Positions 1,041 through 61,330 of a stretch of DNA of 64,000 nucleotides are shown in pieces. Location of the stretch: contig JAFZMH010000007.1 of assembly GCA_017553325.1 (NCBI GenBank), positions 32,751-96,750 on the forward strand, in the 5' to 3' direction. The position numbers and the translations under genes are program-made. The notes under the pieces are model-generated. The model searched no databases and was not told the DNA's origin. It worked only from the letters and a program-made list of their open reading frames with translations. The first letter of the stretch is position 1, and each line of letters starts with the position of its first letter. Source of the stretch: Clostridia bacterium (lineage in GTDB: Bacteria > Bacillota > Clostridia > Christensenellales > CAG-917).

Positions 1041-1916
1041 ATGAAAAAGACAATCATCAAGGTCGTCACCATCGTCCTTACCGTCGCGATTTTTGCGACA
1101 CTCGTCTCGGTTTTTACGGGATGTAATTCCACCAAAAAGGACAGCAACAAACTCTACGTCGGACTTGAATGTGCCTACGCGCCTTTCAACTATACCTTAA
1201 CCGAGCAAATTCCCGGTTCGGTGCCGATTTACAACAGCAACTACAAACAACAATCCTCAAGTTATGCCTATGGCTACGACGTGCAGATTGCAAAGAAGAT
1301 TGCGGAAAGCCTCGGCAAAGAACTAGTCATCGTCAAACTCGAATGGGACGCACTCATTCCCGCCGTCAAAGCGGGAACTATCGACCTCATCATCGCGGGT
1401 ATGAGCCCGACAAGCGAAAGAAAGAAATCAATCGACTTTTCGGACGTCTACTATGAGAGCCAACTCGTCGTTGTCGTGAGAAACGACGGCGCGTTTAAGA
1501 ACGCAACTTCTCTCGACGAACTCAGGGGCGCAAAGATAGTCGCACAAAACGGAACTTTCCACAACGACGCACTTCAAGCACAGGCAAGCGCACATGGTAT
1601 AATCGCTCAACAGCCTATGGACGATTTTCCCGATATGATAAACGCATTGAACACGCGCGCGGTTGACGGCTACGTCGCAGAGGAACCCGGAGCAATTGAA
1701 AATTGCGCATCCAACCCAAATTTCACCTATATTCACCTCGTCAACAACACGACGGGTTTTGAAGCGACGGATGACGACGTTGCAATCGCGGTAGGTCTCA
1801 AAAAAGGAAGCGACCTTCTCTCCTCCGTCAACGCCGCGCTCGCAAATATTTCACAGGAAGAACGCGCAAGTATGATGCAAAACGCAATAACTCAATCAGC
1901 AGGCGCGGAAGAATAA
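1041..1916 (+). CDS. Polar amino-acid ABC transporter substrate-binding lipoprotein (family 3)
   Basis: 291 aa. Signal peptide with lipobox VFTGC. SBP_bac_3-like motifs (DLIIAGMSPTSERKKSIDFSDVYY). RBS AAGGAG 8 nt upstream. First gene after the lysine riboswitch. Confidence 0.85.
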   Translation: MKKTIIKVVTIVLTVAIFATLVSVFTGCNSTKKDSNKLYVGLECAYAPFNYTLTEQIPGSVPIYNSNYKQQSSSYAYGYDVQIAKKIAESLGKELVIVKLEWDALIPAVKAGTIDLIIAGMSPTSERKKSIDFSDVYYESQLVVVVRNDGAFKNATSLDELRGAKIVAQNGTFHNDALQAQASAHGIIAQQPMDDFPDMINALNTRAVDGYVAEEPGAIENCASNPNFTYIHLVNNTTGFEATDDDVAIAVGLKKGSDLLSSVNAALANISQEERASMMQNAITQSAGAEE

Positions 1917-1922
1917 CGAATT

Positions 1923-2693
1923 ATGTTTGAAACTATAGGAATAATAATCAAAGATTATTACAAATGGATTTTGGAAGGCGTGGGCTACACTATGCTCGTC
2001 GCGCTTGTCGGCACGCTTGTCGGGCTTGGAATCGGTATTTTGATCGGAATATTCCGCACTATGCCGACGCCGAAAAACAAGTTTTTGAAGGTGCTGAAAA
2101 AGATTGCGGACGTGATACTGTCAGCCTACGTCGAAGTCTTCCGTTGCACGCCTATGATGGTGCAAGCGATGGTCATCTTTTGGGGGTTCGCGTTCTTAAA
2201 CGACGGACAGACGCTCAACGTTACCGTGAGCGCACTCATCATCGTTTCCATCAACACGGGCGCATACATGGCGGAAATCGTGCGCGGGGGCATCATATCA
2301 ATAGACCAAGGTCAATTTGAAGCGGCGCACGCAATCGGTATGTCGCACTCTAAGACGATGTTCTACGTCGTCATACCTCAGGCTCTGCGCAACATACTCC
2401 CCTCGGTGAGCAACGAATTTGTCATCAACATAAAAGATACGTCCGTGCTCAACGTCATCGGGTTTGCGGAACTCTTCTTCCAAGCCAAAACAATCGTCAA
2501 AATCAACTACGAGACGTTTGCGACGTATTTGCTAGTAGCGGCAATATACTTTGTCCTCACCTATTCGATAACCCTCCTCCTCCGCCTCGTAGAGCGTAAA
2601 ATGGACGGAAAAAAGAATTATAAAGTGCTTGGCTCGCAGAATATGGACGCCGAAAGCTATGCAATCGAGATGGGAGGAAACAAAAATGACTGA
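1923..2693 (+). CDS. Amino-acid ABC transporter permease (His/Glu/Gln/Arg/opine family)
   Basis: 256 aa multi-TM protein. EAA-type loop [32 protein letters not shown]. Confidence 0.85.
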
Positions 2694-3423
2694 AAATTCA
2701 AATTGCGAAATCATTCGCGTCGAACATCTCAGCAAGTCGTTTGGCGAACATCAAGTGCTGAAAGACGTGGACTTTGTCGTGAACAAAGGCGACGTCATCT
2801 GCATTATCGGCAGTTCGGGCAGCGGCAAAAGCACTCTGCTTCGTTGCATAAACCTGTTTGAAACGCCGTCGGGCGGAAAAATACTCTACCACGGTCAGGA
2901 CGTCGCGCACACGAAAAACCCCGACCTCTATCGCAGAAACGTCGGAATGGTGTTTCAATCTTTCAACCTTTTCAACAACTACAACGTGCTTTCAAACTGC
3001 ACGCTTGGTCTCAAAAAAGTCTTGAAAATGAAAAAGGCGGAAGCGAACGAGCGCGCCCTTCACTACCTCAAAATCGTCGGCATGGACGCATATCAAAAGG
3101 CAAAACCGAAACAACTCTCCGGCGGTCAAAAACAGCGCGTGGCAATCGCGCGCGCACTATCCATGCAACCCGAGGTCATACTCTTTGACGAACCGACTTC
3201 CGCTCTCGACCCCGAAATGGTGGGCGAAGTCCTCTCCGTCATGCAGGACCTCGCAAAATCGGGACTCACGATGATTGTCGTCACTCACGAGATGAGTTTT
3301 GCAAAGAACGTCGCAAACCGCGTCGTATTTATGGACGACGGCGTCATCCTTGAAGAAGGCACTCCAAAGCAAATCTTTGAAAGCCCAAAAGAATCCCGAA
3401 CCCGCGAGTTTTTGGGACTTTGA
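2686..3423 (+). CDS. Amino-acid ABC transporter ATP-binding protein
   Basis: Walker [10 protein letters not shown], signature [15 protein letters not shown], Walker [13 protein letters not shown] trimmed the start to ATG 2686 (RBS GGGAGG at 2672-2677), which overlaps the permease stop (ATGACTGA). Confidence 0.9.
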
Positions 3424-3429
3424 TAGTTT

Positions 3430-3461
3430 AAAACCGCGAGGAAATATCCTCGCGGTTTTTA
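3430..3461. terminator. Bidirectional rho-independent terminator
   Basis: ccgcgagga-aata-tcctcgcgg (9-bp stem), A-run before and T5 after. Lies between convergent genes ending at 3423(+) and 3486(-). Confidence 0.8.
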
Positions 3462-3485: not shown

Positions 3486-5417
3486 CTAATACACCAACAA
3501 ACTATCTGCTTCGTCAGCAAAAACCATCAAACAATCGTTCAAGTCGTAAACGCTGCCGAATGTACCACTGCCAAACACAAACACACCGGCATCGCTATCT
3601 GCCAAGCCTTCTACTTGATAAATCAGTTCCATATAATTTAATGATTGAATTATTTCGACTTGCATTCCGACCGCCGTTCCGCATACCGAACCAGCAGGTG
3701 TAACCAAAGAGGAGCTCGGAGCTTGAATAATACGAATCACGAGAGGCATCAAATAGTAATCCTCATCCTGAACATAAATCATTTCGCAGACTTCGGAAGC
3801 ATTTATGTACCCCAAATCCTTTGAAGTCGGGTTTTTGACTTTCTTATATCGAACGCCACCCGCAGTTTTGTCATACAACGTGCCGTCTGCATTGTAGATC
3901 CAGCCGTCTGCATCAAGAAGCTCATTTGCTTTTGCTATATCCAAATTCATTGAAGTGCTTGTGGCTTCTCCCGCCCAATAGCCGTTCAATCTGAAAGAAT
4001 AATTTGCGGGATTCGGCACATTGTAATAGTCTTGGATATCTTGCCAATTCAACGCCTTGCTCAGTGCTTGACGGACGGCTCTTGAGGCAAGAGGACCTAT
4101 CGCTTTGATTTGCAACATACAATTATTCGGTCTGCAGTCCACCGCTATCGGTGACTCCTGCGAAGAAAATTCTCCTACGTCATAACCGAAATGCACAAAA
4201 GCTTGCGACTGTTGAGGATAAACCTCTGATTCGATATGAATGTTTTTCACCGCTTCATCATTAGAATTTGCAGTAAGGTCGATGCCACCTTTTCCGTTAT
4301 CGTTGCGCCCTTTGGTTATTCTATATGCGCCCGAAGTGGCAAAAGAAATATCTTTGTTGTTTTCGTCAATAATACTTCGCAAAACAAACCGTTCGTTTTC
4401 ATCTTTGACATAAGCGGAATTCGGCAAAGCCAACCCTTGCTCCGTCGCAACAAGTTCGTTATCCCCCAAGAAAATCACATTGGGATACGGATATAAATCA
4501 AGAAGCTCCTCCGCCCAATAATAATTTGCGTATTTCTCGTCGTACGTGAAAACCATGGTATATTCGTCCGTCATCTTCACTCCCTTGAACGCAGTTTGCG
4601 TCGTCGCGGTTGAAAACGTTCCGTAACCGTCGAGTTTTTCCGCAAGAGCCTCATACTCGGCGTTTGAATAAATCGGGGACGCGAGCACCAACAATTTTCC
4701 GAGATAGTTTTGTGCTTTTATGGGAGTTCCGTCCGAAAATGTCAAATCGTTGCGGATAGTCACCGTCACTTGACGTTTGCCTTCCGCATTGATTATGCTC
4801 TCGTGCGAAGCGACAACGTCGTTATTGAAAGAGATCTTGCCTTGACTGTCGTTCACGAGAAGTCCTTGTCCTTTGATAAGCGCACGCCAATCCAAATACG
4901 TCGAACTGCTTGTCCAATACGGATCGCGAGCAGTCATCATCAAATTGAGCGCATCACCGCTTGTAGGAACCCAAAAACGCGCTTGTTCAAAACCCATATA
5001 TCTTGTTATCGGATGGTCCTCTACACCTTCAACATTGCTATATGCGAGATAGTAATAATGCGGCGCCATAACAACACCTTGCATATAATCCATGCGCCTG
5101 TTGTACCACTCATACCACTTTTTGAAGACTTCATCCTCGGTCAGTCCGCCTGAGGCTTGCGAATTGAACACCATAGCGTTGGCAAGGAAGTTCAAACCAA
5201 GATCGTATCTCTCGTTGTTCACAATAAGATACGCAAGGCCGTTGTCATCCTCGTTTACATCCGTCCAGGAGACGCTTGCTCCGCCGTTGTATTCGTCTAT
5301 AACTTTCGGTTCAACTCTTTGTTGCTGCTCGTCAGGCTTTTTGTTGCATGCGAAGAGCGCGAGCGCAAACACGCACGTTAATGCGATTATCGGCAACAAT
5401 TTAAGCAATTTTTTCAT
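3486..5417 (-). CDS. Orphan extracellular solute-binding lipoprotein, family 5 (peptide/nickel-type SBP fold)
   Basis: Start trimmed to ATG 5417 (RBS GGAGG 9 nt upstream). MKKLLKLLPIIALTCVFALALFAC lipobox. Family-5-like blocks LTFSDGTPIKAQNY, AVRQALSKALNWQ, ANELLDADGWIYNADGTLY. No cognate permease or ATPase genes adjacent. Confidence 0.7.
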   Translation of the reverse strand: MKKLLKLLPIIALTCVFALALFACNKKPDEQQQRVEPKVIDEYNGGASVSWTDVNEDDNGLAYLIVNNERYDLGLNFLANAMVFNSQASGGLTEDEVFKKWYEWYNRRMDYMQGVVMAPHYYYLAYSNVEGVEDHPITRYMGFEQARFWVPTSGDALNLMMTARDPYWTSSSTYLDWRALIKGQGLLVNDSQGKISFNNDVVASHESIINAEGKRQVTVTIRNDLTFSDGTPIKAQNYLGKLLVLASPIYSNAEYEALAEKLDGYGTFSTATTQTAFKGVKMTDEYTMVFTYDEKYANYYWAEELLDLYPYPNVIFLGDNELVATEQGLALPNSAYVKDENERFVLRSIIDENNKDISFATSGAYRITKGRNDNGKGGIDLTANSNDEAVKNIHIESEVYPQQSQAFVHFGYDVGEFSSQESPIAVDCRPNNCMLQIKAIGPLASRAVRQALSKALNWQDIQDYYNVPNPANYSFRLNGYWAGEATSTSMNLDIAKANELLDADGWIYNADGTLYDKTAGGVRYKKVKNPTSKDLGYINASEVCEMIYVQDEDYYLMPLVIRIIQAPSSSLVTPAGSVCGTAVGMQVEIIQSLNYMELIYQVEGLADSDAGVFVFGSGTFGSVYDLNDCLMVFADEADSLLVY

Positions 5418-6393
5418 TTTCTGTTTCCTCCTGTTTATTAGGGTATAGCGGATGTTTTGTTTCATATCCGCACTTTGAACAATGATACTTCATCTCGTAA
5501 TAAACAAAATCGTGTGGTTCTTCAAAATATGATCCACATACATTGCACGTTCCAATGTGTGTAATTGGATTGATTGTGTATGTATTAGCATAATGCTGAC
5601 CATATATCGTTTGACTGCATACGCTACACGTATGCCAATGATACGTATTGCTGGATGAGTATGCTCCAAAAGTATGATTGTTTGTTATAAGACTTCTTCC
5701 GCAATAATAACAACCATATGTATGCGTATAGTCATTATATGAAATCAAGCACGTTGAAGTATGATTTGAATTGTGCCTATAAACACAAACGAAATCTCCT
5801 GGATAACTCAGCAGTTTATCTCCAATAGCAGGGGTATAAAAAGGATGATGTACTAAGTCTGATTCAACTATTTGTCCTTTTCCCCATTTGGATTTTATTC
5901 GAACAGACGTTGTTGTGCTACCTGTCTGAACAACCATTGCCGAATGCTTGATTTCATTGTCAAATATATATGTTGTGTCACTATATTTATATAAAATAAT
6001 ATCTCCAACTTGCAAATTACTTGCGATAGTATCAGTTAGGTATTCATCACTGTAAATGATGCTATAACAAGTATTTGACGGATTCCCCACATATGGGGTA
6101 GGATCGTTGATATTGAACTGAGTCTCAGCTATATACGCATATAAATCGCCTTGATAGTACCACGCAAAAGTATGGCAATTGAACGTATCGGTAGCAATAT
6201 CAACCAAAAGTGTTGCACCCGTATAGTTGCTTATATTATAGCTATATCCATCGGTCCCAGTGCCGTATTCGATTTCTATTTGAATTCCAGCAGGAGTATA
6301 AATATAATAACTGGAAGATGATGTTACAGCCATCTGTGACCCATATAGAATTGTTGCAGGTATTATAAGACTAAGTAACAGTTTTTGAATCAT
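5401..6393 (-). CDS. Secreted protein: putative papain-fold Cys/His amidase-like N-domain plus four H-C-x2-C-H zinc-knuckle-like repeats
   Basis: 330 aa with an N-terminal hydrophobic signal. Candidate Cys (FNCHTFAW) and His (IKHSAMVV) dyad. C-terminus has HTYGCYYCGRSLITNNH, HTCSVCSQTIYGQH, HIGTCNVCGSYFEEPH, HCSKCGYETKH. Very AT-rich coding sequence and no strong SD. The stop overlaps the downstream SBP start by 17 nt. Confidence 0.6.
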   Translation of the reverse strand: MIQKLLLSLIIPATILYGSQMAVTSSSSYYIYTPAGIQIEIEYGTGTDGYSYNISNYTGATLLVDIATDTFNCHTFAWYYQGDLYAYIAETQFNINDPTPYVGNPSNTCYSIIYSDEYLTDTIASNLQVGDIILYKYSDTTYIFDNEIKHSAMVVQTGSTTTSVRIKSKWGKGQIVESDLVHHPFYTPAIGDKLLSYPGDFVCVYRHNSNHTSTCLISYNDYTHTYGCYYCGRSLITNNHTFGAYSSSNTYHWHTCSVCSQTIYGQHYANTYTINPITHIGTCNVCGSYFEEPHDFVYYEMKYHCSKCGYETKHPLYPNKQEETENEKIA

Positions 6394-6591
6394 AGTTTCA
6401 CATCACAAATGCTATTTTGATTTTTCAGTAAATTATCTTTACTCCCTAATCCATATAATAGTTGCATTTTATATGGAAAAAAGTGACAACTATTTGGAAT
6501 TTTTTGCTTTACAACAATAATTATGCGGTAAAAACCACAAATAGTCAATCACTTTATTCGGGTAAAGTAGTCGTTAAATTGATTTTATAGA

Positions 6592-8097
6592 TTATTTTCC
6601 TCTAAACATAAACCCTTCCTTTTGATAGACCTTGAGTTGAAGGTTGAGTTGCTCGATGAACTCTTTGTTTGAGGAGGTGCGAACAAGCATATTGAGAATA
6701 TTCTCGGTGGCGTCTGCGTTGTCCGTGTTGGAAAGGAGTTTGCGGATGCCCCACATACCCTCGAGTTCGCTTGCGGAGAGCAAGAGTTCTTCCTTTCTCG
6801 TGCCGCTCTTGGCAAGATCGATTGCCGGGAATATGCGTTTTTCGCTCAGACGTCTGTCTAGGTGAATTTCCATATTCCCCGTGCCCTTGAATTCCTCGAA
6901 TATAACGTCGTCCATACGACTGCCGGTATCTATGAGCGCGGTTGCTATTATCGTGAGCGAACCACCGCCCTCGATATTTCTCGCAGAACCGAAGAAGCGT
7001 TTAGGGCTGTGAAGCGCGCCGGGGTCTATACCGCCCGACAACGTTCTGCCCGTCGGCGGAATCGTCAGGTTGTAGGCGCGCGCAAGTCTTGTCAAGCTGT
7101 CGAGCAAGATGACGACGTCTTTGCCGTTTTCGACGAGACGCTTGGCTCTTTCAAGCAACATTTCAGCCGTCTTGGTGTGATGCTCGGGGAGTTCGTCAAA
7201 GGTGGAATATATCACTTCGCCCTTTATCGAGCGTTGCATATCCGTCACTTCCTCGGGACGCTCGTCGATAAGCAGAACTTTGAGTTCGATTTCCGGATAG
7301 TTTTTGGATATTGCGTTTGCAATCATTTTGAGAAGCGTCGTCTTGCCTGCCTTCGGCGGAGAGACGATGATGCCTCTTTGTCCCTTGCCTATCGGAGATA
7401 CGAGGTCGATACAGCGCGTGGCGTACTCTCTCGGGTTGCTTGCGAGTTCGAGGCGTATACGTTCGTCGGGGTAAATCGGCACGAGGTCGTCAAAGTTGGG
7501 ACGCTTGCCGACTTTCGCCACGTCAACGCCGTTTATCGTGAGCACGCTGACGACTGCGGACGGTCTTCCCTCTTGCAATATTTTGCAGGACGCTTTGACG
7601 TAGTCTCCGCGACGCAAATCGTATTGCTTGATTTTTGCGGAAGCGACGTAGGCGTCCATCTCGTTGAATTCGCCGTTTTTTACTCTCAAAAAGCCGTAGC
7701 CGTCCGGATGCATTTCAAGATATCCTTCTCTAACCTGTTCGACGTCCGAGCCCGCAGGCGATTCCGAAACCTTCTTCAATGCGGGAAAATTCTCCTTGTC
7801 CTCGAAATCGGTCTTTACGTTGTCGACGCGATGAAACTTGATTTGAGGACGGTTGTCCTCGTTTTTAGACCTGTTGCCGACTTTACTTGCGGGTTCCGTT
7901 GCCACAAGTTCCTTTTTCGGTCTTCCGCGACGCGGAGCGACGGGCGGGTCCATCTTGCCGTTGCTGATCTTGTAAATCAATTCGATAAGTTCCGCTTTGT
8001 TCATTTTGGTTGGAGCGGGAACGCCGACTTCCTTGCCTATTGCGCGAATTTCAAAGATACTCTTTGAATTCAGTTCGTCCATAGAATAACTTGCCAT
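6592..8097 (-). CDS. rho: Transcription termination factor Rho (with N-terminal insertion domain)
   Basis: 501 aa. Rho N-terminal helix bundle ([21 protein letters not shown]), CSD-like [11 protein letters not shown], Walker [11 protein letters not shown], RecA-type core. About 85 extra residues lie between the helix bundle and the CSD. RBS AGGAG. Confidence 0.95.
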
Positions 8098-8248
8098 AAA
8101 TATCTCCTATAAACAGTATTTTTCATTAAGTTTGATTATCCGCTGAAAACGCGGAATAAATTGTGAATTATCTTTTGCAAATCGAACGCGAGGTTCTCAG
8201 CAGAACGTATAAACCGTCCGCGCGGCTTGCGCCACGCAGACGCATAAA

Positions 8249-8902
8249 TCATTTCGAAAGTTTTTCAAGTACCAAGACTTTCGTCTCCTCACCGTTGAAA
8301 TCGGCGCGGTCAAATTCGACTGTCGGGGACTCTGCGTAGACGACGTTTTCGTCGTCGAACAGGCTCAAAAACTCACCGACTTTGTCAATGTCAAATTCGC
8401 AGTCTCTCGTCTTGTAGTGCATCGGGATAACGACGTCAGGCATAATGCGGTCAACGTATTCCTTTGCTTGCTTTGCGTCAATGGTAAAGTTGCCGCCGAC
8501 GGGAATGAGTAGGATGTTCACGGGCATAATGCTCTCGACGATCATACCGTTGCACTCCTCGCCGATGTCGCCCATGTGGCAGACGTCGACGCCGTCCATA
8601 CGATATTTGAACACGAGCACTTCCCCTCTCGACGCGCCTTTTTTGTCATCGTGATAGGCGCGCGACGCAAGCATATGCACGCCGCCGATTTCATACGCGC
8701 CAACGCGGTTCAAAACCGTCGGATCACCCGAAACCTTTTGAATGTAGGAGTGGTCCTTGTGCGCGTGCGACACGGTGACTACGTCCGCTTCCACGTCCGG
8801 CATTTCATAGCCGACGTAGGAGTGATACGGGTCTGTGACTATTCTCGTCCCCGTGCTCTCTTCAAGCAGAAACGAGGAATGTCCAAGCCAAGTAATTTTC
8901 AC
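8249..8902 (-). CDS. MBL-fold metal-dependent hydrolase (UPF0173-like)
   Basis: 217 aa. MKITWLGHSSFLLE start, HAHKDH metal motif. GTG start with RBS AGGAGG 7 nt upstream. Confidence 0.8.
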   Translation of the reverse strand: MKITWLGHSSFLLEESTGTRIVTDPYHSYVGYEMPDVEADVVTVSHAHKDHSYIQKVSGDPTVLNRVGAYEIGGVHMLASRAYHDDKKGASRGEVLVFKYRMDGVDVCHMGDIGEECNGMIVESIMPVNILLIPVGGNFTIDAKQAKEYVDRIMPDVVIPMHYKTRDCEFDIDKVGEFLSLFDDENVVYAESPTVEFDRADFNGEETKVLVLEKLSK

Positions 8903-27469: not shown

Positions 27470-27539
27470 AATCTTTACCTTCCTTATTTAATAAGGAAAT
27501 ATTAACACACAAACCGTACTATTTCAAGTGTTTTACATT

Positions 27540-27574
27540 TGTTTCACAAATGTTTCACAGATTTTTGTGAAACA
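27540..27574. promoter_or_regulatory. Triple 9-mer TGTTTCACA motif (two direct, one inverted) upstream of smc
   Basis: tgtttcaca at 27540-48 and 27551-59 (11-bp phase), inverted tgtgaaaca at 27566-74. Lies just upstream of a TTGAAA-16-TTAATA promoter candidate (minus strand, 27527-27500). Confidence 0.4.
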
Positions 27575-27601
27575 TGACAAAAGTTTGTCAACGCTACGAG
27601 T

Positions 27602-27645
27602 TAAAAAAACGAAATAAAAGTCGTGGCGGTTTGCCCCGCCACGAC
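27602..27645 (-). terminator. Rho-independent terminator after the DUF3021-like gene
   Basis: 10-bp GC-rich stem gtcgtggcgg/ccgccacgac. On the minus strand it is followed by ttttatttcgttttttt. Confidence 0.85.
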
Positions 27646-27713
27646 GATTTAACACGGTTAGAATGCCGATTTTTTATTTGTGAACTAATTGGCCTAAATT
27701 TTGACGATTGCTT

Positions 27714-28151
27714 TCAGCCTTGCAAGTTTTTGTTGAGTTTCTTTGCCGCTGCTGTCACCGAGAGATAAATTATTCCCCAAATAAGCGCGTACCCTGCGAC
27801 GAAAGCGCCTGTGAAAATCAAGATTAATTGCCAACGAAGCGGTATCCAGTTGTTTATGAGATAGGCGCAAACGTATGTCGCGTAAAGACAGAGTAATTGC
27901 AGTCCCGCAGATTTTATCGGCGACCAACTTTCAATCTGATGAAATACCGACGTTCCCGCCTGTGCAAACGCTATGAGATAGCCTGAAAATACTGCCAGCA
28001 GTATTTGCCACCCCGCAAGATTCAAATCGGTCTTGATTCCGACAAAAGCCAACACGATGCCGACCACTATGCACCCCAAACCGCCGAAAACGAGTCCGCG
28101 ATGTAAAAATTCTTTGAGATATGGGTTGATACGTCTTTTTTCTGTTTTCAT
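27714..28151 (-). CDS. Small 4-TM membrane protein (DUF3021-like), putative partner/inhibitor of the LytTR regulator
   Basis: 145 aa with four hydrophobic segments. The start ATG overlaps the LytTR gene stop (ATGA at 28148-28151). Confidence 0.7.
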   Translation of the reverse strand: MKTEKRRINPYLKEFLHRGLVFGGLGCIVVGIVLAFVGIKTDLNLAGWQILLAVFSGYLIAFAQAGTSVFHQIESWSPIKSAGLQLLCLYATYVCAYLINNWIPLRWQLILIFTGAFVAGYALIWGIIYLSVTAAAKKLNKNLQG

Positions 28152-28582
28152 TTTAGTTTCATCCTTTCCATAACGATCTTTGTCTGACGACGGGAAACGT
28201 AGTCCCTATCGCCGTTTTTGAGTTCAACGATGAGTGAGCCGTCCCATGATGCAACAAACTTTTTGATATACGCCACAGCAACGAGCGATGACTGATTTAT
28301 TTTGCAAAAGGCGTCGCCGACAAGCTCTTCAAGCTGATAAATACGATATTTTATCGTATATTTGGCGTTTTCAAGAGATGCGAACACTTTTCCGCCCTCC
28401 ACGAAAAACCTCTGAACCTCGCTGACGTCAATCGGAATCGTCTCGTCATCCTTTATACCTACGAGCGACAACTCCGAATTGTTTACAAGCGTTTCGATTT
28501 GCTCAACAAGCGGAGTACGTGCGTGAGCATACACGTCAACCCGCTCAATTTCGTTTGTATTGATATTTACGTTGCACTTCAT
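28148..28582 (-). CDS. Stand-alone LytTR-family DNA-binding protein (no receiver domain)
   Basis: 144 aa. LytTR-type C-terminal half (FFVEGGKVFASLENAKYTIKYRIYQLEELVGDAFCKINQSSLVAVAYI...YVSRRQ). RBS AGGAGG. Confidence 0.75.
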   Translation of the reverse strand: MKCNVNINTNEIERVDVYAHARTPLVEQIETLVNNSELSLVGIKDDETIPIDVSEVQRFFVEGGKVFASLENAKYTIKYRIYQLEELVGDAFCKINQSSLVAVAYIKKFVASWDGSLIVELKNGDRDYVSRRQTKIVMERMKLK

Positions 28583-28600
28583 CTTTTGCCTCCTGTGAGC

Positions 28601-59895: not shown

Positions 59896-61215
59896 TCAGG
59901 GGTTGCCAACTATTCCCATAAACAACGGGAGTCCGTCAATGCCGTTGACGACGAATATAAACGGACGATTGACGACAAAATTCACCGTCTCTTCTATCGG
60001 CATAGCGGTGTTCTCAGCATAAACGATAGTATATGCTGCGGCTTCGCATCCCTCTTCGTCGGTCTTGACGCGCACGGCTTGCAAAACATCGCTGACGTAT
60101 GCGGGCGTATTCCCCGTGAGCCTTGTGAAATCCGCCTCGTCGGCGTCGAATGCCGAAGTCATACCGAGCGCCTTCAAACCTTTTTTCAAATCGGTTTTGC
60201 CGGAGACGTCAAACTTGGGCAAAGAAATATTTACGTTAAGGTATGAAACACCGACGTCGCTCCTGTCGCCGTACATCAAGTTTTGCGCGGTTGCGTCCGA
60301 CAATAATTCGTGAGGGGTGACGCCTTCGTCCGGCAAAATAATCGACATCGAACCGGCGTTTCTAAAGGACAAATCAACGGCGGAAAACTTGTCCGCATAG
60401 TAATATGCACCCCTGAAACCATTGTGCATAAAGTCTGCTTGTTTTTCACTGCCGTTTGCAAGATAAAACGGCTCTTTTCGTGTATCTAACTCGCTGAATT
60501 GCGCTTCCCACCTTGCGTTGAAATATATTGCGGAGACGAGCGCGAAGAGCGTTGAGCCTGAAAACTTTTCGTCATTGACGTAATCTTTCAAAAAGTTTTT
60601 CGTCATGGCGTTGAGCCACCCTCTGAGGGCTTCGTTGAACTTCTCTTCTCCCATTTTCCCTCTGAAGGTCGAAGCGTAATAATCGTTTGCGAGTAAGTCG
60701 CAAACGTTCTTGTCGAACCCACACGATTCGTTCAGCCAAAGCGAATTTGCCATAAGGCTCGTCACCGTCCCGTCGTCGACGTAGTTGGCGTTCCAAGCAG
60801 AATTGACCTTCTGCCTCAATGTCTCGACGTTTTCCGCGCCGAGCACGTTCAATATCTGCGTTCTCGTCTCGCCTTTTGCGGTCTCCGCAAGCATTGCAAG
60901 AGCAAAATACAGGCTTAATGGAGCGTAGAGTTCGTTTGCATCTTCCCCCGACAAAAACATACTTGCCGACGAGGAGAAAAACCTCTCCATACCGTCCTTG
61001 TACCCTGCGGGTTGGTCTATTTGTCTGTTTCTGTCATTCCGCCACTCGCTGTAGTTATTCTCACTGAATTTCGTCATTTGCGGGAAACTCGCCTGAGAGA
61101 CGGCGTAAGCGGTATACGTGTTATTTTTGTCCTTTTTTCCGCAACCGAAAAACGCAAGCGTAAGCACGCACGCCAACAAAACGATACAAACGATTTTTAC
61201 GGAAAGTTTTTTCAT
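59896..61215 (-). CDS. Serpin-family lipoprotein (predicted inhibitory)
   Basis: Start trimmed to ATG 61215 (RBS GAGGTGG). Lipobox LAFFGC. Hinge EEGCEAAAYT resembles the inhibitory-serpin EEGTEAAAAT. C-terminal VVNRPFIFVV...PLFMGIVGNP serpin signature. Confidence 0.8.
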   Translation of the reverse strand: MKKLSVKIVCIVLLACVLTLAFFGCGKKDKNNTYTAYAVSQASFPQMTKFSENNYSEWRNDRNRQIDQPAGYKDGMERFFSSSASMFLSGEDANELYAPLSLYFALAMLAETAKGETRTQILNVLGAENVETLRQKVNSAWNANYVDDGTVTSLMANSLWLNESCGFDKNVCDLLANDYYASTFRGKMGEEKFNEALRGWLNAMTKNFLKDYVNDEKFSGSTLFALVSAIYFNARWEAQFSELDTRKEPFYLANGSEKQADFMHNGFRGAYYYADKFSAVDLSFRNAGSMSIILPDEGVTPHELLSDATAQNLMYGDRSDVGVSYLNVNISLPKFDVSGKTDLKKGLKALGMTSAFDADEADFTRLTGNTPAYVSDVLQAVRVKTDEEGCEAAAYTIVYAENTAMPIEETVNFVVNRPFIFVVNGIDGLPLFMGIVGNP

Positions 61216-61330
61216 ATCCACCTCGTTTATGCAAAGCATAAAACTCTACAGTTTTCTTATAACACTCAATCGTTATTTTGTCAACAGTTAAAACATTCTT
61301 GTAGCACAGCAAAATCATTTGAAAAAACGT

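What the first reader, a model, noticed from the sequence alone, without database searches (positions are those of the whole stretch)
3486..6591. AT-rich, SD-poor two-gene unit wedged between a terminator and rho: compositional island with an orphan family-5 solute-binding lipoprotein
Hand counts of single 60-nt lines give 13/60 GC (5941-6000) and 19/60 (5701-5760) in the upstream gene. The SBP gene gives 25/60 (4201-4260) and neighbouring rho gives 39/60 (7021-7080). The first gene lacks the strong GGAGG-type RBS that nearly every other gene here has. The two genes overlap by 17 nt, suggesting translational coupling. The SBP has no permease or ATPase partner, so it is unlikely to serve a dedicated ABC importer here. 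Together this suggests a horizontally acquired secreted-protein/binding-protein pair of unknown function.
Basis: partly seen in the sequence, partly recalled or inferred. Interest (0 to 1): 0.55.

Follow-up and report, generated by a model that had tools for sequence, protein, structure and literature searches.

The report
Secreted cysteine hydrolase with lipoprotein partner
Next to rho, a gut Clostridia bacterium carries a two-gene operon for an unannotated secreted cysteine-histidine enzyme and a membrane-anchored peptide-binding-type lipoprotein; only the enzyme gene is compositionally foreign, and across gut bacteria this enzyme family sits beside a lipoprotein gene far more often than chance would give.

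Summary
The sequence facts hold. A bidirectional terminator (3430-3459) closes the unit.

The island is smaller than claimed. Only gene 1 (GC 35.2%, GC3 0.275, z -4) and the 198-nt spacer (26.8%) are atypical. The binding-protein gene (44.9%, GC3 z -1.2) is normal.

Gene 1 is a Sec-exported protein named "hypothetical" wherever a source names it.
- Its N-terminal domain has a papain-like layout with invariant Cys73 and His150. It is related to Pfam DUF7689 (hhalign 98.5%) and only faintly CHAP/staphopain-like.
- Its C-terminus carries three H-x3-C-x2-C-x7-8-H repeats plus a final CxxC.

Gene 2 is a divergent family-5 (Opp-type) solute-binding lipoprotein. No Opp permease lies in the 64 kb, but distant relatives sit in full Opp operons.

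The pair recurs in two other lineages with matching divergence. Family-wide, 26 of 62 tight neighbours of gene-1 homologues are lipoproteins, against 21 of 525 other genes.

Best reading: a secreted hydrolase with a dedicated cell-surface lipoprotein partner (inhibitor, immunity or tether). Peptide capture is the main rival. The mechanism is inferred, not shown. Interest is moderate.

The parts
6520..6548 (-). Promoter-like site TTGACT-17-CATAAT upstream of gene 1
   Evidence: Consensus scan, 10 of 12 matches. The region holds no more such sites than shuffles do, so this is a candidate only.
6394..6591 (.). AT-rich spacer between the rho stop and the gene 1 start (26.8% GC)
   Evidence: No Rfam match. 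No clear terminator after rho.
5401..6393 (-). Gene 1: 330-aa exported protein, compositionally atypical (GC 35.2%, GC3 0.275)
   Evidence: ORF. Composition. Homologues. No Pfam, NCBIfam, PHROG or PADLOC hit.
6328..6393 (-). Signal-peptide-like N-terminus (residues 1-22: MIQKLLLSLIIPATILYGSQMA)
   Evidence: Read from the sequence. AF2 pLDDT is below 50 for residues 1-17. Homologues have hydrophobic N-termini at the same place. NCBI starts the gene at M21, which removes it.
5794..6327 (-). N-terminal catalytic-type domain (residues 23-200), DUF7689-related, papain-like layout. Invariant N72, C73, D131, H150 and K169; S168 and W170 nearly invariant (at least 90% of sequences).
   Evidence: Alignments A1 and A2. 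AF2 pLDDT 86. Cys73 starts helix 73-79 and His150 lies in strand 148-156. hhalign against a DUF7689 protein gives 98.5% probability, E 3e-15.
5440..5793 (-). C-terminal beta-hairpin module (residues 201-318): three H-x3-C-x2-C-x7-8-H units and a last CxxC, then an acidic tail
   Evidence: All these Cys and His are invariant in the five closest homologues. The same unit repeats up to 19 times in giant proteins of 1,100-4,700 aa. Three such proteins scanned carry surface-type domains: dockerin, LRR, lectin, Flg_new, CBM20.
5427..5431 (-). GGAGG Shine-Dalgarno of the SBP gene, inside the last codons of gene 1
   Evidence: Read from the sequence. Duplex energy -10.3 kcal/mol.
5401..5417 (-). 17-nt overlap of the gene 1 end (stop 5401-5403) with the SBP start (ATG 5417-5415)
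3486..5417 (-). Gene 2: 643-aa family-5 solute-binding lipoprotein (signal peptide ending LFAC, Cys24), normal composition
   Evidence: PF00496 at 62.1 bits against a cut-off of 32.4. Closest solved structure is L. lactis OppA, E 1e-5. Composition. 643 aa in public gene calls.
3430..3459 (.). Bidirectional intrinsic terminator shared with the convergent amino-acid ABC operon
   Evidence: 13-bp stem with 7 G-C pairs, read from the sequence as flanked by an A-run and a T-run.

Best explanation
The interval is one small operon of the flexible genome.

Gene 1 is an exported enzyme.
- It has a signal peptide and an N-terminal papain-like Cys-His hydrolase domain. That domain belongs to an uncharacterised family related to Pfam DUF7689.
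- Its tail holds three to four Cys2His2 mini-domains, probably zinc-binding, of a kind otherwise strung along giant surface proteins of gut Firmicutes.

Gene 2 is translated from its own strong SD inside the end of gene 1. It is a membrane-anchored lipoprotein with the fold of an Opp-type peptide-binding protein. It has been detached from any importer operon.

Proposed mechanism (inferred):
- The lipoprotein is the enzyme's dedicated cell-surface partner. It binds the hydrolase at the producer's membrane and holds or neutralises it there, like a cognate inhibitor, immunity protein or tether.
- In this clade the partner slot is filled by a peptide-binding SBP fold. It may clamp the enzyme's conserved acidic C-terminal tail.

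Shown: the gene structures, the domain relationships, recurrence of the pair, and the family-wide link to lipoprotein genes.
Inferred: catalysis, zinc binding, export, and any physical interaction.
For: - Invariant N-C-H, GD, H-S and S-K-W motifs occur across 32 relatives. Cys73 sits at a helix N-terminus and His150 on a beta-strand.
- Homology to DUF7689 is strong: hhalign 98.5%.
- Weak signals from independent methods all point to papain-like or CHAP-type hydrolases. CHAP is the most frequent sub-threshold Pfam hit (5 of 32 members, best E 9.5e-5). Prostaphopain B is the top PDB Foldseek hit (E 0.02, probability 0.94). Phage CHAP proteins are the top BFVD hits (E 0.26).
- The pair is tightly coupled here (17-nt overlap) and in L001 (4-nt overlap), and adjacent in L004. 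Divergence of the two genes matches.
- Family-wide, 26 of 62 tight same-strand neighbours are predicted lipoproteins, against 21 of 525 other genes in the same loci (odds ratio 17, p 5e-16). 40 of 62 are exported, against 83 of 525.
- The partners are mostly unrelated to one another and lack Pfam domains.
- Cassettes repeat in tandem in L013, L015 and L029, and L041 holds five paralogues. This is the pattern seen for effector-immunity and protease-inhibitor pairs.
- Precedents: staphopain/staphostatin, SpeB/Spi and Bacteroides Bfp/Bfi. In these, adjacent co-transcribed inhibitors, some with lipoprotein signals, are proposed to protect the producer (PMC2873492). Another is the Tse1/Tsi1 hydrolase-immunity pair (PMC3391265, abstract).
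Against: - No activity, export or interaction has been measured or modelled. No complex prediction could be run.
- The window protein itself reaches no Pfam threshold. The N-domain model has no significant structural neighbour.
- A 643-aa SBP is unlike any known protease inhibitor or immunity protein, and its fold is made to bind small peptides.
- The same SBP clade occurs as tandem paralogues without gene 1 in L002 and L003, so it can function independently.
- Only three SBP-type pairs are known.
- The lipoprotein calls rest on a home-made lipobox rule applied to crude ORF calls.
Confidence: 0.35

Rival explanations
1. Peptide harvest. The secreted hydrolase cuts peptides from peptidoglycan stems or from external proteins. 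The SBP lipoprotein captures the product and hands it to an Opp/Dpp-type permease encoded elsewhere, for nutrition, cell-wall recycling or sensing.
For: - Gene 2 is a bona fide SBP_bac_5 protein. Its best solved relative is OppA.
- More distant relatives P0010 and P0017 head complete SBP-OppB-OppC-OppD-OppF operons.
- Family-5 lipoproteins encoded away from the permease they serve are well documented, for example pneumococcal AliA, AliB, AliC and AliD serving the Ami permease (PMC11192437).
- From my own knowledge, the B. subtilis dpp-ykf locus joins a family-5 SBP with an NlpC/P60 endopeptidase.
- The SBP clade also exists without gene 1.
Against: - In the rest of the enzyme family the adjacent lipoproteins are not SBPs. 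They are short, unrelated proteins without known domains. Product capture therefore cannot be the general logic of the module.
- No Opp permease lies in the 64 kb. Its presence elsewhere is unknown.
Confidence: 0.3
2. A recently acquired horizontal island comprising both genes, with no necessary functional link beyond co-transfer.
For: - Gene 1 and the spacer are the most AT-rich kilobase of the window, and gene 1 has the most deviant codon usage of any sizeable ORF.
- The surroundings are core housekeeping genes: rho, PRPP synthetase, LepA, SRP54, SMC, IleRS.
- None of 80 loci around rho relatives carries the pair.
Against: - The SBP gene is compositionally normal.
- No mobility genes, tRNA or flanking repeats are present.
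- All four sampled assemblies of the species are identical here.
- Homologues that have diverged to 36-43% identity keep the same low GC3 in hosts of 43-48% GC. That argues for a standing property of the family rather than lack of time to ameliorate.
- The rho relatives compared are only about 50% identical, so their lack of the pair says little.
Confidence: 0.25
3. Two independent accessory surface genes that merely share a transcript: an autolysin-like wall hydrolase and an orphan OppA paralogue.
For: Either gene type is common alone. Gene-1 homologues occur without SBPs in 60 or more loci, and the SBP clade occurs without gene 1.
Against: - Overlapping reading frames occur in two lineages.
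- Adjacency is kept despite an order swap in a third lineage.
- Divergence of the two genes matches.
- Lipoprotein neighbours are strongly enriched across the family.
Confidence: 0.1

Closest known systems
Pfam DUF7689 (PF24738), a domain of unknown function
   Same: Same motif set and order: Y-[ND]-C-H, GDI-x-[IV]-Y, H-S-[AG], SKWG-x-x-G-x-Y-x-H. Profile-to-sequence hhalign gives 98.5% probability, E 3e-15.
   Different: The Pfam model does not detect the window protein, and detects only 2 of 32 relatives weakly. The two DUF7689-linked proteins examined (P0149, P0151) are short, lack the Cys2His2 tail, and one is from a proteobacterium. No function is known, and no paper in the searched library mentions the family.
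CHAP / NlpC-P60 peptidoglycan amidases and endopeptidases (papain-like clan)
   Same: Cys at a helix N-terminus, a GD-hydrophobic strand, His at the start of the next strand, then a conserved polar-Trp motif about 20 residues later. Proteins are exported. CHAP is the commonest weak Pfam hit and the top BFVD fold hit.
   Different: Nothing reaches significance for the window protein. The usual third catalytic residue (Glu, Asn or His) is replaced by an invariant Ser-Lys.
Staphopain-staphostatin, SpeB-Spi and Bacteroides Bfp-Bfi protease-inhibitor operons
   Same: A secreted papain-fold cysteine enzyme is co-transcribed with an adjacent small partner that protects the producer. Some Bfi inhibitors carry lipoprotein signals (PMC2873492). 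Prostaphopain B is the best PDB fold match.
   Different: Those inhibitors are small proteins (staphostatins are lipocalin-like, Spi is a propeptide analogue), not a 643-aa SBP. The enzyme here is not a C47 or C10 peptidase by sequence.
Family-5 oligopeptide-binding lipoproteins encoded away from their permease (pneumococcal AliA, AliB, AliC, AliD; Borrelia OppA paralogues)
   Same: A PF00496 lipoprotein with no adjacent permease. Precedent exists for several binding proteins sharing one permease (PMC11192437; PMC5736914, abstract).
   Different: Very divergent: 27 bits to the nearest solved OppA. It is translationally coupled to a secreted hydrolase gene. A permease partner has not been identified.
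Peptidoglycan-hydrolase effector / immunity pairs (e.g. T6SS Tse1-Tsi1)
   Same: A conserved hydrolase domain paired with diverse adjacent immunity proteins exported to the compartment where the enzyme acts (PMC3391265, abstract). Tandem cassettes occur.
   Different: No specialised secretion system or delivery domain is present. The host is Gram-positive-type and export would be by Sec. Toxicity is untested.

Membership tests
SBP_bac_5 (PF00496), cluster C solute-binding proteins | Pfam model matched above the gathering score | tested here: met
   62.1 bits against 32.4, E 6.8e-17, two stretches. OppA is the best PDB sequence match.
SBP_bac_5 (PF00496), cluster C solute-binding proteins | Lipoprotein signal (Gram-positive type anchoring) | tested here: met
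   The N-terminus MKKLLKLLPIIALTCVFALALFAC has a lipobox-like LFAC ending at Cys24. This is a sequence reading only.
Functional ABC-importer binding protein | Cognate OppBCDF-type permease and ATPase genes | tested here: not met
   None adjacent, and none in the 64-kb window. The rest of the genome could not be searched. Distant relatives do have them.
Functional ABC-importer binding protein | Peptide-terminus-binding residues in the cleft | not tested
   Alignment to solved OppA covers only residues 211-275 and 441-512, too little to place them.
DUF7689 (PF24738) | Pfam model match | tested here: not met
   No hit for the window protein even at E up to 1. Two of 32 relatives match, best E 5e-4.
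DUF7689 (PF24738) | Homology by profile comparison and shared motifs | tested here: met
   hhalign probability 98.5%, E 3.2e-15. A profile search recovers proteins labelled DUF7689 at E 1e-8 to 2e-7. The motifs are visible.
CHAP domain (PF05257) | Pfam model match | tested here: not met
   No hit for the window protein. Five of 32 relatives are below threshold, best E 9.5e-5.
CHAP domain (PF05257) | Cys on a helix N-terminus followed by His on a beta-strand, with structural similarity | tested here: inconclusive
   The layout is present in the AF2 models. Foldseek is not significant: PDB E about 1 or worse, BFVD CHAP hits at E 0.26.
Staphopain-type protease with cognate inhibitor | C47 or C10 peptidase fold | tested here: inconclusive
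   Prostaphopain B at E 0.02, probability 0.94, TM 0.2. The match is lost when the N-domain is searched alone.
Staphopain-type protease with cognate inhibitor | Adjacent small beta-barrel inhibitor | tested here: not met
   The partner is a 643-aa SBP-fold lipoprotein.
Horizontally acquired genomic island | Atypical composition across the whole unit | tested here: not met
   Only gene 1 and the spacer deviate. The SBP gene is normal.
Horizontally acquired genomic island | Mobility genes, tRNA target or flanking repeats | tested here: not met
   None.
Horizontally acquired genomic island | Absence from close relatives at the same junction | not testable with these tools
   The nearest rho relatives retrieved are about 52% identical. 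Same-species assemblies all carry it.
Effector-immunity module | Toxicity of the enzyme and neutralisation by the neighbour | not testable with these tools
   Only genomic pattern is available: lipoprotein enrichment, partner diversity and tandem cassettes.

The most novel reading that the evidence does not exclude
DUF7689-like secreted Cys-His hydrolases with Cys2His2 tails, each paired with a hypervariable lipoprotein, form a widespread and undescribed Sec-dependent enzyme/immunity (or enzyme/tether) system of gut and rumen Firmicutes. In the clade seen here, an Opp-type peptide-binding protein has been exapted from transport to serve as that partner, possibly by clamping the enzyme's conserved acidic C-terminal tail.
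Probability: 0.2. Interest if true: 0.7.

Novelty: new variant of a known kind. Interest (0 to 1): 0.45.

Why it matters
- The enzyme family is common in gut and rumen bacteria (63 loci among GTDB species representatives). Every source that names a member calls it "hypothetical", and no paper in the searched library mentions its nearest Pfam relative.
- A statistically strong, previously unremarked link to adjacent lipoprotein genes gives a concrete, testable handle on its function.
- If the SBP-fold lipoprotein proves to be a protein-binding partner rather than a transport component, it would be a clear case of a solute-binding fold recruited to control a secreted enzyme.
- If it does not, the locus is an ordinary accessory operon of a wall or peptide hydrolase plus an orphan OppA paralogue.
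- For genome scanning, compositional islands can end sharply at a gene boundary even inside an overlapping, co-inherited gene pair.

Tried and rejected
- Pfam, NCBIfam, PHROGs and PADLOC on gene 1 found nothing.
- PDB sequence searches with the family profiles A1 and A2 gave only chance-level zinc-finger or zinc-ribbon hits.
- Foldseek of the N-domain model against PDB and BFVD found nothing significant.
- The 352-aa lipoprotein partner of homologue P0026 was compared with the SBP and showed no similarity.
- Rfam on the region returned one chance-level hit.
- Repeat search for insertion scars found only short chance repeats.
The five-sequence alignment A3 worked.
- The rho-junction synteny test in relatives failed because the metagenome scan returned nothing closer than about 52% identity.
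- Same-species contigs carry no polymorphism that could inform selection.
- I considered a phage or defence-system origin and rejected it: no matches, and the flanks are housekeeping genes.
- I considered that the NCBI start (M21, 310 aa) is right and rejected it: homologues align through the hydrophobic N-terminus, and the gene calls on the same-species contigs give 330 aa.
Full report
**What is there**

The interval holds two minus-strand genes.
- Gene 1 runs 6393 to 5401 (330 aa).
- Gene 2 starts at the ATG at 5417 and ends at 3486 (643 aa). A GGAGG at 5427-5431 precedes it. The longer ORF from 5465 has no SD, and public gene calls give 643 aa.
- The two overlap by 17 nt.
- Downstream, a 13-bp hairpin, read from the sequence as flanked by an A-run and a T-run (3430-3459), separates gene 2 from the convergent ABC ATPase gene.
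- Upstream, a 198-nt spacer with a promoter-like TTGACT-17-CATAAT (6548-6520) separates gene 1 from the rho stop at 6592.
- The neighbouring ABC operon (1041-3423) is a polar-amino-acid system with its own family-3 binding protein.

**Checking the observation**

- The window is 47.7% GC, and 1-kb windows have sd 3.3 points.
- Gene 1 is 35.2% GC. The lowest 1-kb window of the 64 kb lies within it (z -3.8). The spacer is 26.8% GC. The SBP gene is 44.9% (z -0.85).
- At codon level, over 52 ORFs of at least 100 aa, gene 1 has GC3 0.275 against 0.572 (sd 0.075). Its Karlin codon bias is 0.724 against 0.332 (sd 0.124).
- The SBP gene has GC3 0.484 and bias 0.348, which is unremarkable.
- The compositional island is therefore 5401-6591. 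It ends sharply at the gene boundary although the genes overlap.
- Gene 1 lacks an SD: -3.3 kcal/mol against a mean of -7.0 (sd 3.0). About six other long ORFs in the window are equally poor, so that contrast was overstated.

**Gene 1**

No curated library recognises it. NCBI calls it a hypothetical protein of a Clostridia MAG and starts it at M21, which removes the hydrophobic N-terminus. A word-indexed search of 5.8 billion proteins found one homologue. An exhaustive HMMER scan of 1.84 billion cluster representatives found 86.

The hits show two modules.
- Residues about 25-200 recur in exported proteins of 226-450 aa.
- Residues about 200-315 recur up to 19 times in proteins of 1,100-4,700 aa. 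Three of these that were scanned carry dockerin, LRR, lectin-like, Flg_new or CBM20 domains, so they are surface proteins.

In a 32-sequence alignment the invariant residues are N72, C73, D131, H150 and K169. Nearly invariant are C109, G130, I132, S151, S168 and W170.

AlphaFold models are confident: pLDDT 82.6 for the full length and 86.1 for the N-domain. They place Cys73 at the start of a helix. The GDIILY strand, the His150 strand and the SKW strand form the adjoining sheet, which is the papain/NlpC-P60/CHAP layout.

Homology to Pfam DUF7689 is solid.
- hhalign gives 98.5% probability, E 3e-15.
- The motifs are visibly shared.

Links to characterised enzymes are only suggestive.
- CHAP is the commonest sub-threshold Pfam hit among relatives (5 of 32).
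- Prostaphopain B tops the PDB fold search with the full model (E 0.02).
- Phage CHAP proteins top the BFVD search (E 0.26).
- The N-domain alone has no significant PDB neighbour.

The C-terminal module is a run of beta-hairpins. It has three H-x3-C-x2-C-x7-8-H units and a final CxxC, all invariant among the five closest homologues. I infer zinc binding. It is not shown.

**Gene 2**

It passes the Pfam SBP_bac_5 threshold (62 bits against 32). Its nearest solved relative is L. lactis OppA. The N-terminus ends in LFAC, a lipoprotein signal.

Its close relatives (34-47% identity) are all orphans. Relatives at 25-27% identity head complete SBP-OppB-OppC-OppD-OppF operons. No Opp-type permease exists in the 64-kb window. 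The rest of the genome could not be examined.

**Is the pairing meaningful?**

Yes, for three reasons.

1. It recurs.
   - In L001 a gene-1 homologue follows an SBP of the same clade. It overlaps by 4 nt the truncated remnant of a second SBP.
   - In L004 an ECF-type sigma factor gene, a membrane protein gene, an SBP gene and a gene-1 homologue lie in a row.
   - Related contigs L002 and L003, syntenic with L001, have two tandem SBPs and no gene 1.
2. The two genes have diverged in parallel: 43% against 42-47% for window versus L001, and 36% against 34% for window versus L004.
3. The wider enzyme family behaves the same way.
   - A scan of one genome per GTDB species gave 63 loci. Most are from gut and rumen Clostridia, Lachnospiraceae, Oscillospiraceae, Erysipelotrichaceae and Bacilli, and a few are from Bacteroidales.
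   - In those loci plus the earlier ones, 26 of 62 same-strand neighbours within 100 nt are predicted lipoproteins. Among the other genes of the same loci the figure is 21 of 525 (odds ratio 17, p 5e-16).
   - 40 of 62 neighbours are exported, against 83 of 525.
   - These partners are mostly unrelated to one another and have no Pfam domain.
   - Enzyme-lipoprotein cassettes repeat in tandem in L013, L015 and L029, and L041 holds five paralogues.
   - None of these other partners is an SBP.

The lipoprotein calls use my own lipobox rule on crude ORFs. The effect size is large, but it should be repeated with proper tools.

**Origin**

- Gene 1's composition fits the flexible gene pool.
- Homologues are equally AT-rich in their own hosts. 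GC3 is 0.259 in L001, 0.246 in L004 and 0.215 in L005, against flanks of roughly 0.44-0.63. 48 of 59 family loci are AT-richer than their surroundings.
- Sequences that have diverged to 36-43% identity all keep this bias. It is therefore a standing property of the family rather than proof of a recent event here.
- There are no mobility genes, tRNAs or flanking repeats.
- Six assemblies carry this exact SBP. The four examined are identical here apart from one SNP.
- The flanks are core genes.
- Relatives close enough to test the junction were not found.

**Mechanism**

The general rule is a secreted Cys-His hydrolase plus an adjacent, diverse lipoprotein. This matches known logic in which a membrane- or periplasm-located partner binds a secreted hydrolase to protect or position it.
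- Staphopain/staphostatin, SpeB/Spi, and Bacteroides Bfp/Bfi with lipoprotein-type inhibitors (PMC2873492).
- Peptidoglycan-hydrolase effector and immunity pairs (PMC3391265, abstract).

I therefore favour the view that the SBP-fold lipoprotein is the enzyme's surface partner in this clade (confidence 0.35).

The main rival (0.30) is that it simply captures peptide products for an Opp permease elsewhere. Orphan family-5 lipoproteins do this in pneumococci (PMC11192437). That reading fits the SBP's ancestry but not the non-SBP partners in the rest of the family.

Neither reading has been tested. The decisive steps are a complex prediction, a whole-genome permease search and simple biochemistry.

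**Verdict**

- This is a real, correctly located feature.
- The compositional claim holds for one gene only, and the HGT inference is weak.
- It is a new variant of a known kind of module, of moderate interest.

Noticed in passing
L159:3929-5890 and L160:10884-12779: In the Opp-type operons of distant SBP relatives, the OppC-type permease (631-653 aa) carries an inserted RCC1/WD40_RLD beta-propeller-like region between OppC_N and the transmembrane domain. This is an unusual architecture for an ABC permease.
   Followed up: no
L015:4988-5950 and 7311-8312: The two lipoprotein partners in this locus carry the same H...CxxCG...H repeat motif as the C-terminal module of the enzyme family, directly after their lipobox. 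This hints that the repeats are shared between enzyme and partner.
   Followed up: no
L041:63-6492: Five tandem paralogues of the enzyme family lie in one Oscillospiraceae MAG contig, with no interleaved lipoprotein genes.
   Followed up: no
L002:2354-4300, L003:1633-3579, L001:2774-2989: The SBP clade shows decay and turnover. One copy is split into a 94-aa N-terminal ORF plus a 533-aa ORF (L002, L003). Another is truncated to 71 aa just before a TetR gene (L001).
   Followed up: partly
L004:435-4753: In this contig the SBP/enzyme pair follows an ECF-type sigma-70 gene and a 241-aa single-pass membrane protein (a candidate anti-sigma factor). Gaps are short, suggesting envelope-stress-type regulation in that lineage.
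   Followed up: no
window 59896-61239 (-): A 447-aa bacterial serpin (PF00079, E 2e-69) is encoded in the same window. Its N-terminal ~97 residues lie outside the serpin domain.
   Followed up: no
window 6333 vs 6393 (-): The NCBI annotation of this MAG starts gene 1 at Met21 (310 aa), which deletes the signal-peptide-like N-terminus. The gene calls on the same-species contigs, and the homologues, support the 330-aa form.
   Followed up: yes
One of the 58 neighbour ORFs scanned (locus not identified): One gene adjacent to a family member encodes a Peptidase_C10 (streptopain-like) protease with a Spi-type inhibitor (I69) pro-domain. A second kind of secreted cysteine protease therefore sits next to this family in at least one genome.
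   Followed up: no
window 27500-28600 and about 61000: These are the other lowest-GC 1-kb stretches of the window after the gene 1 region. They were not examined.
   Followed up: no
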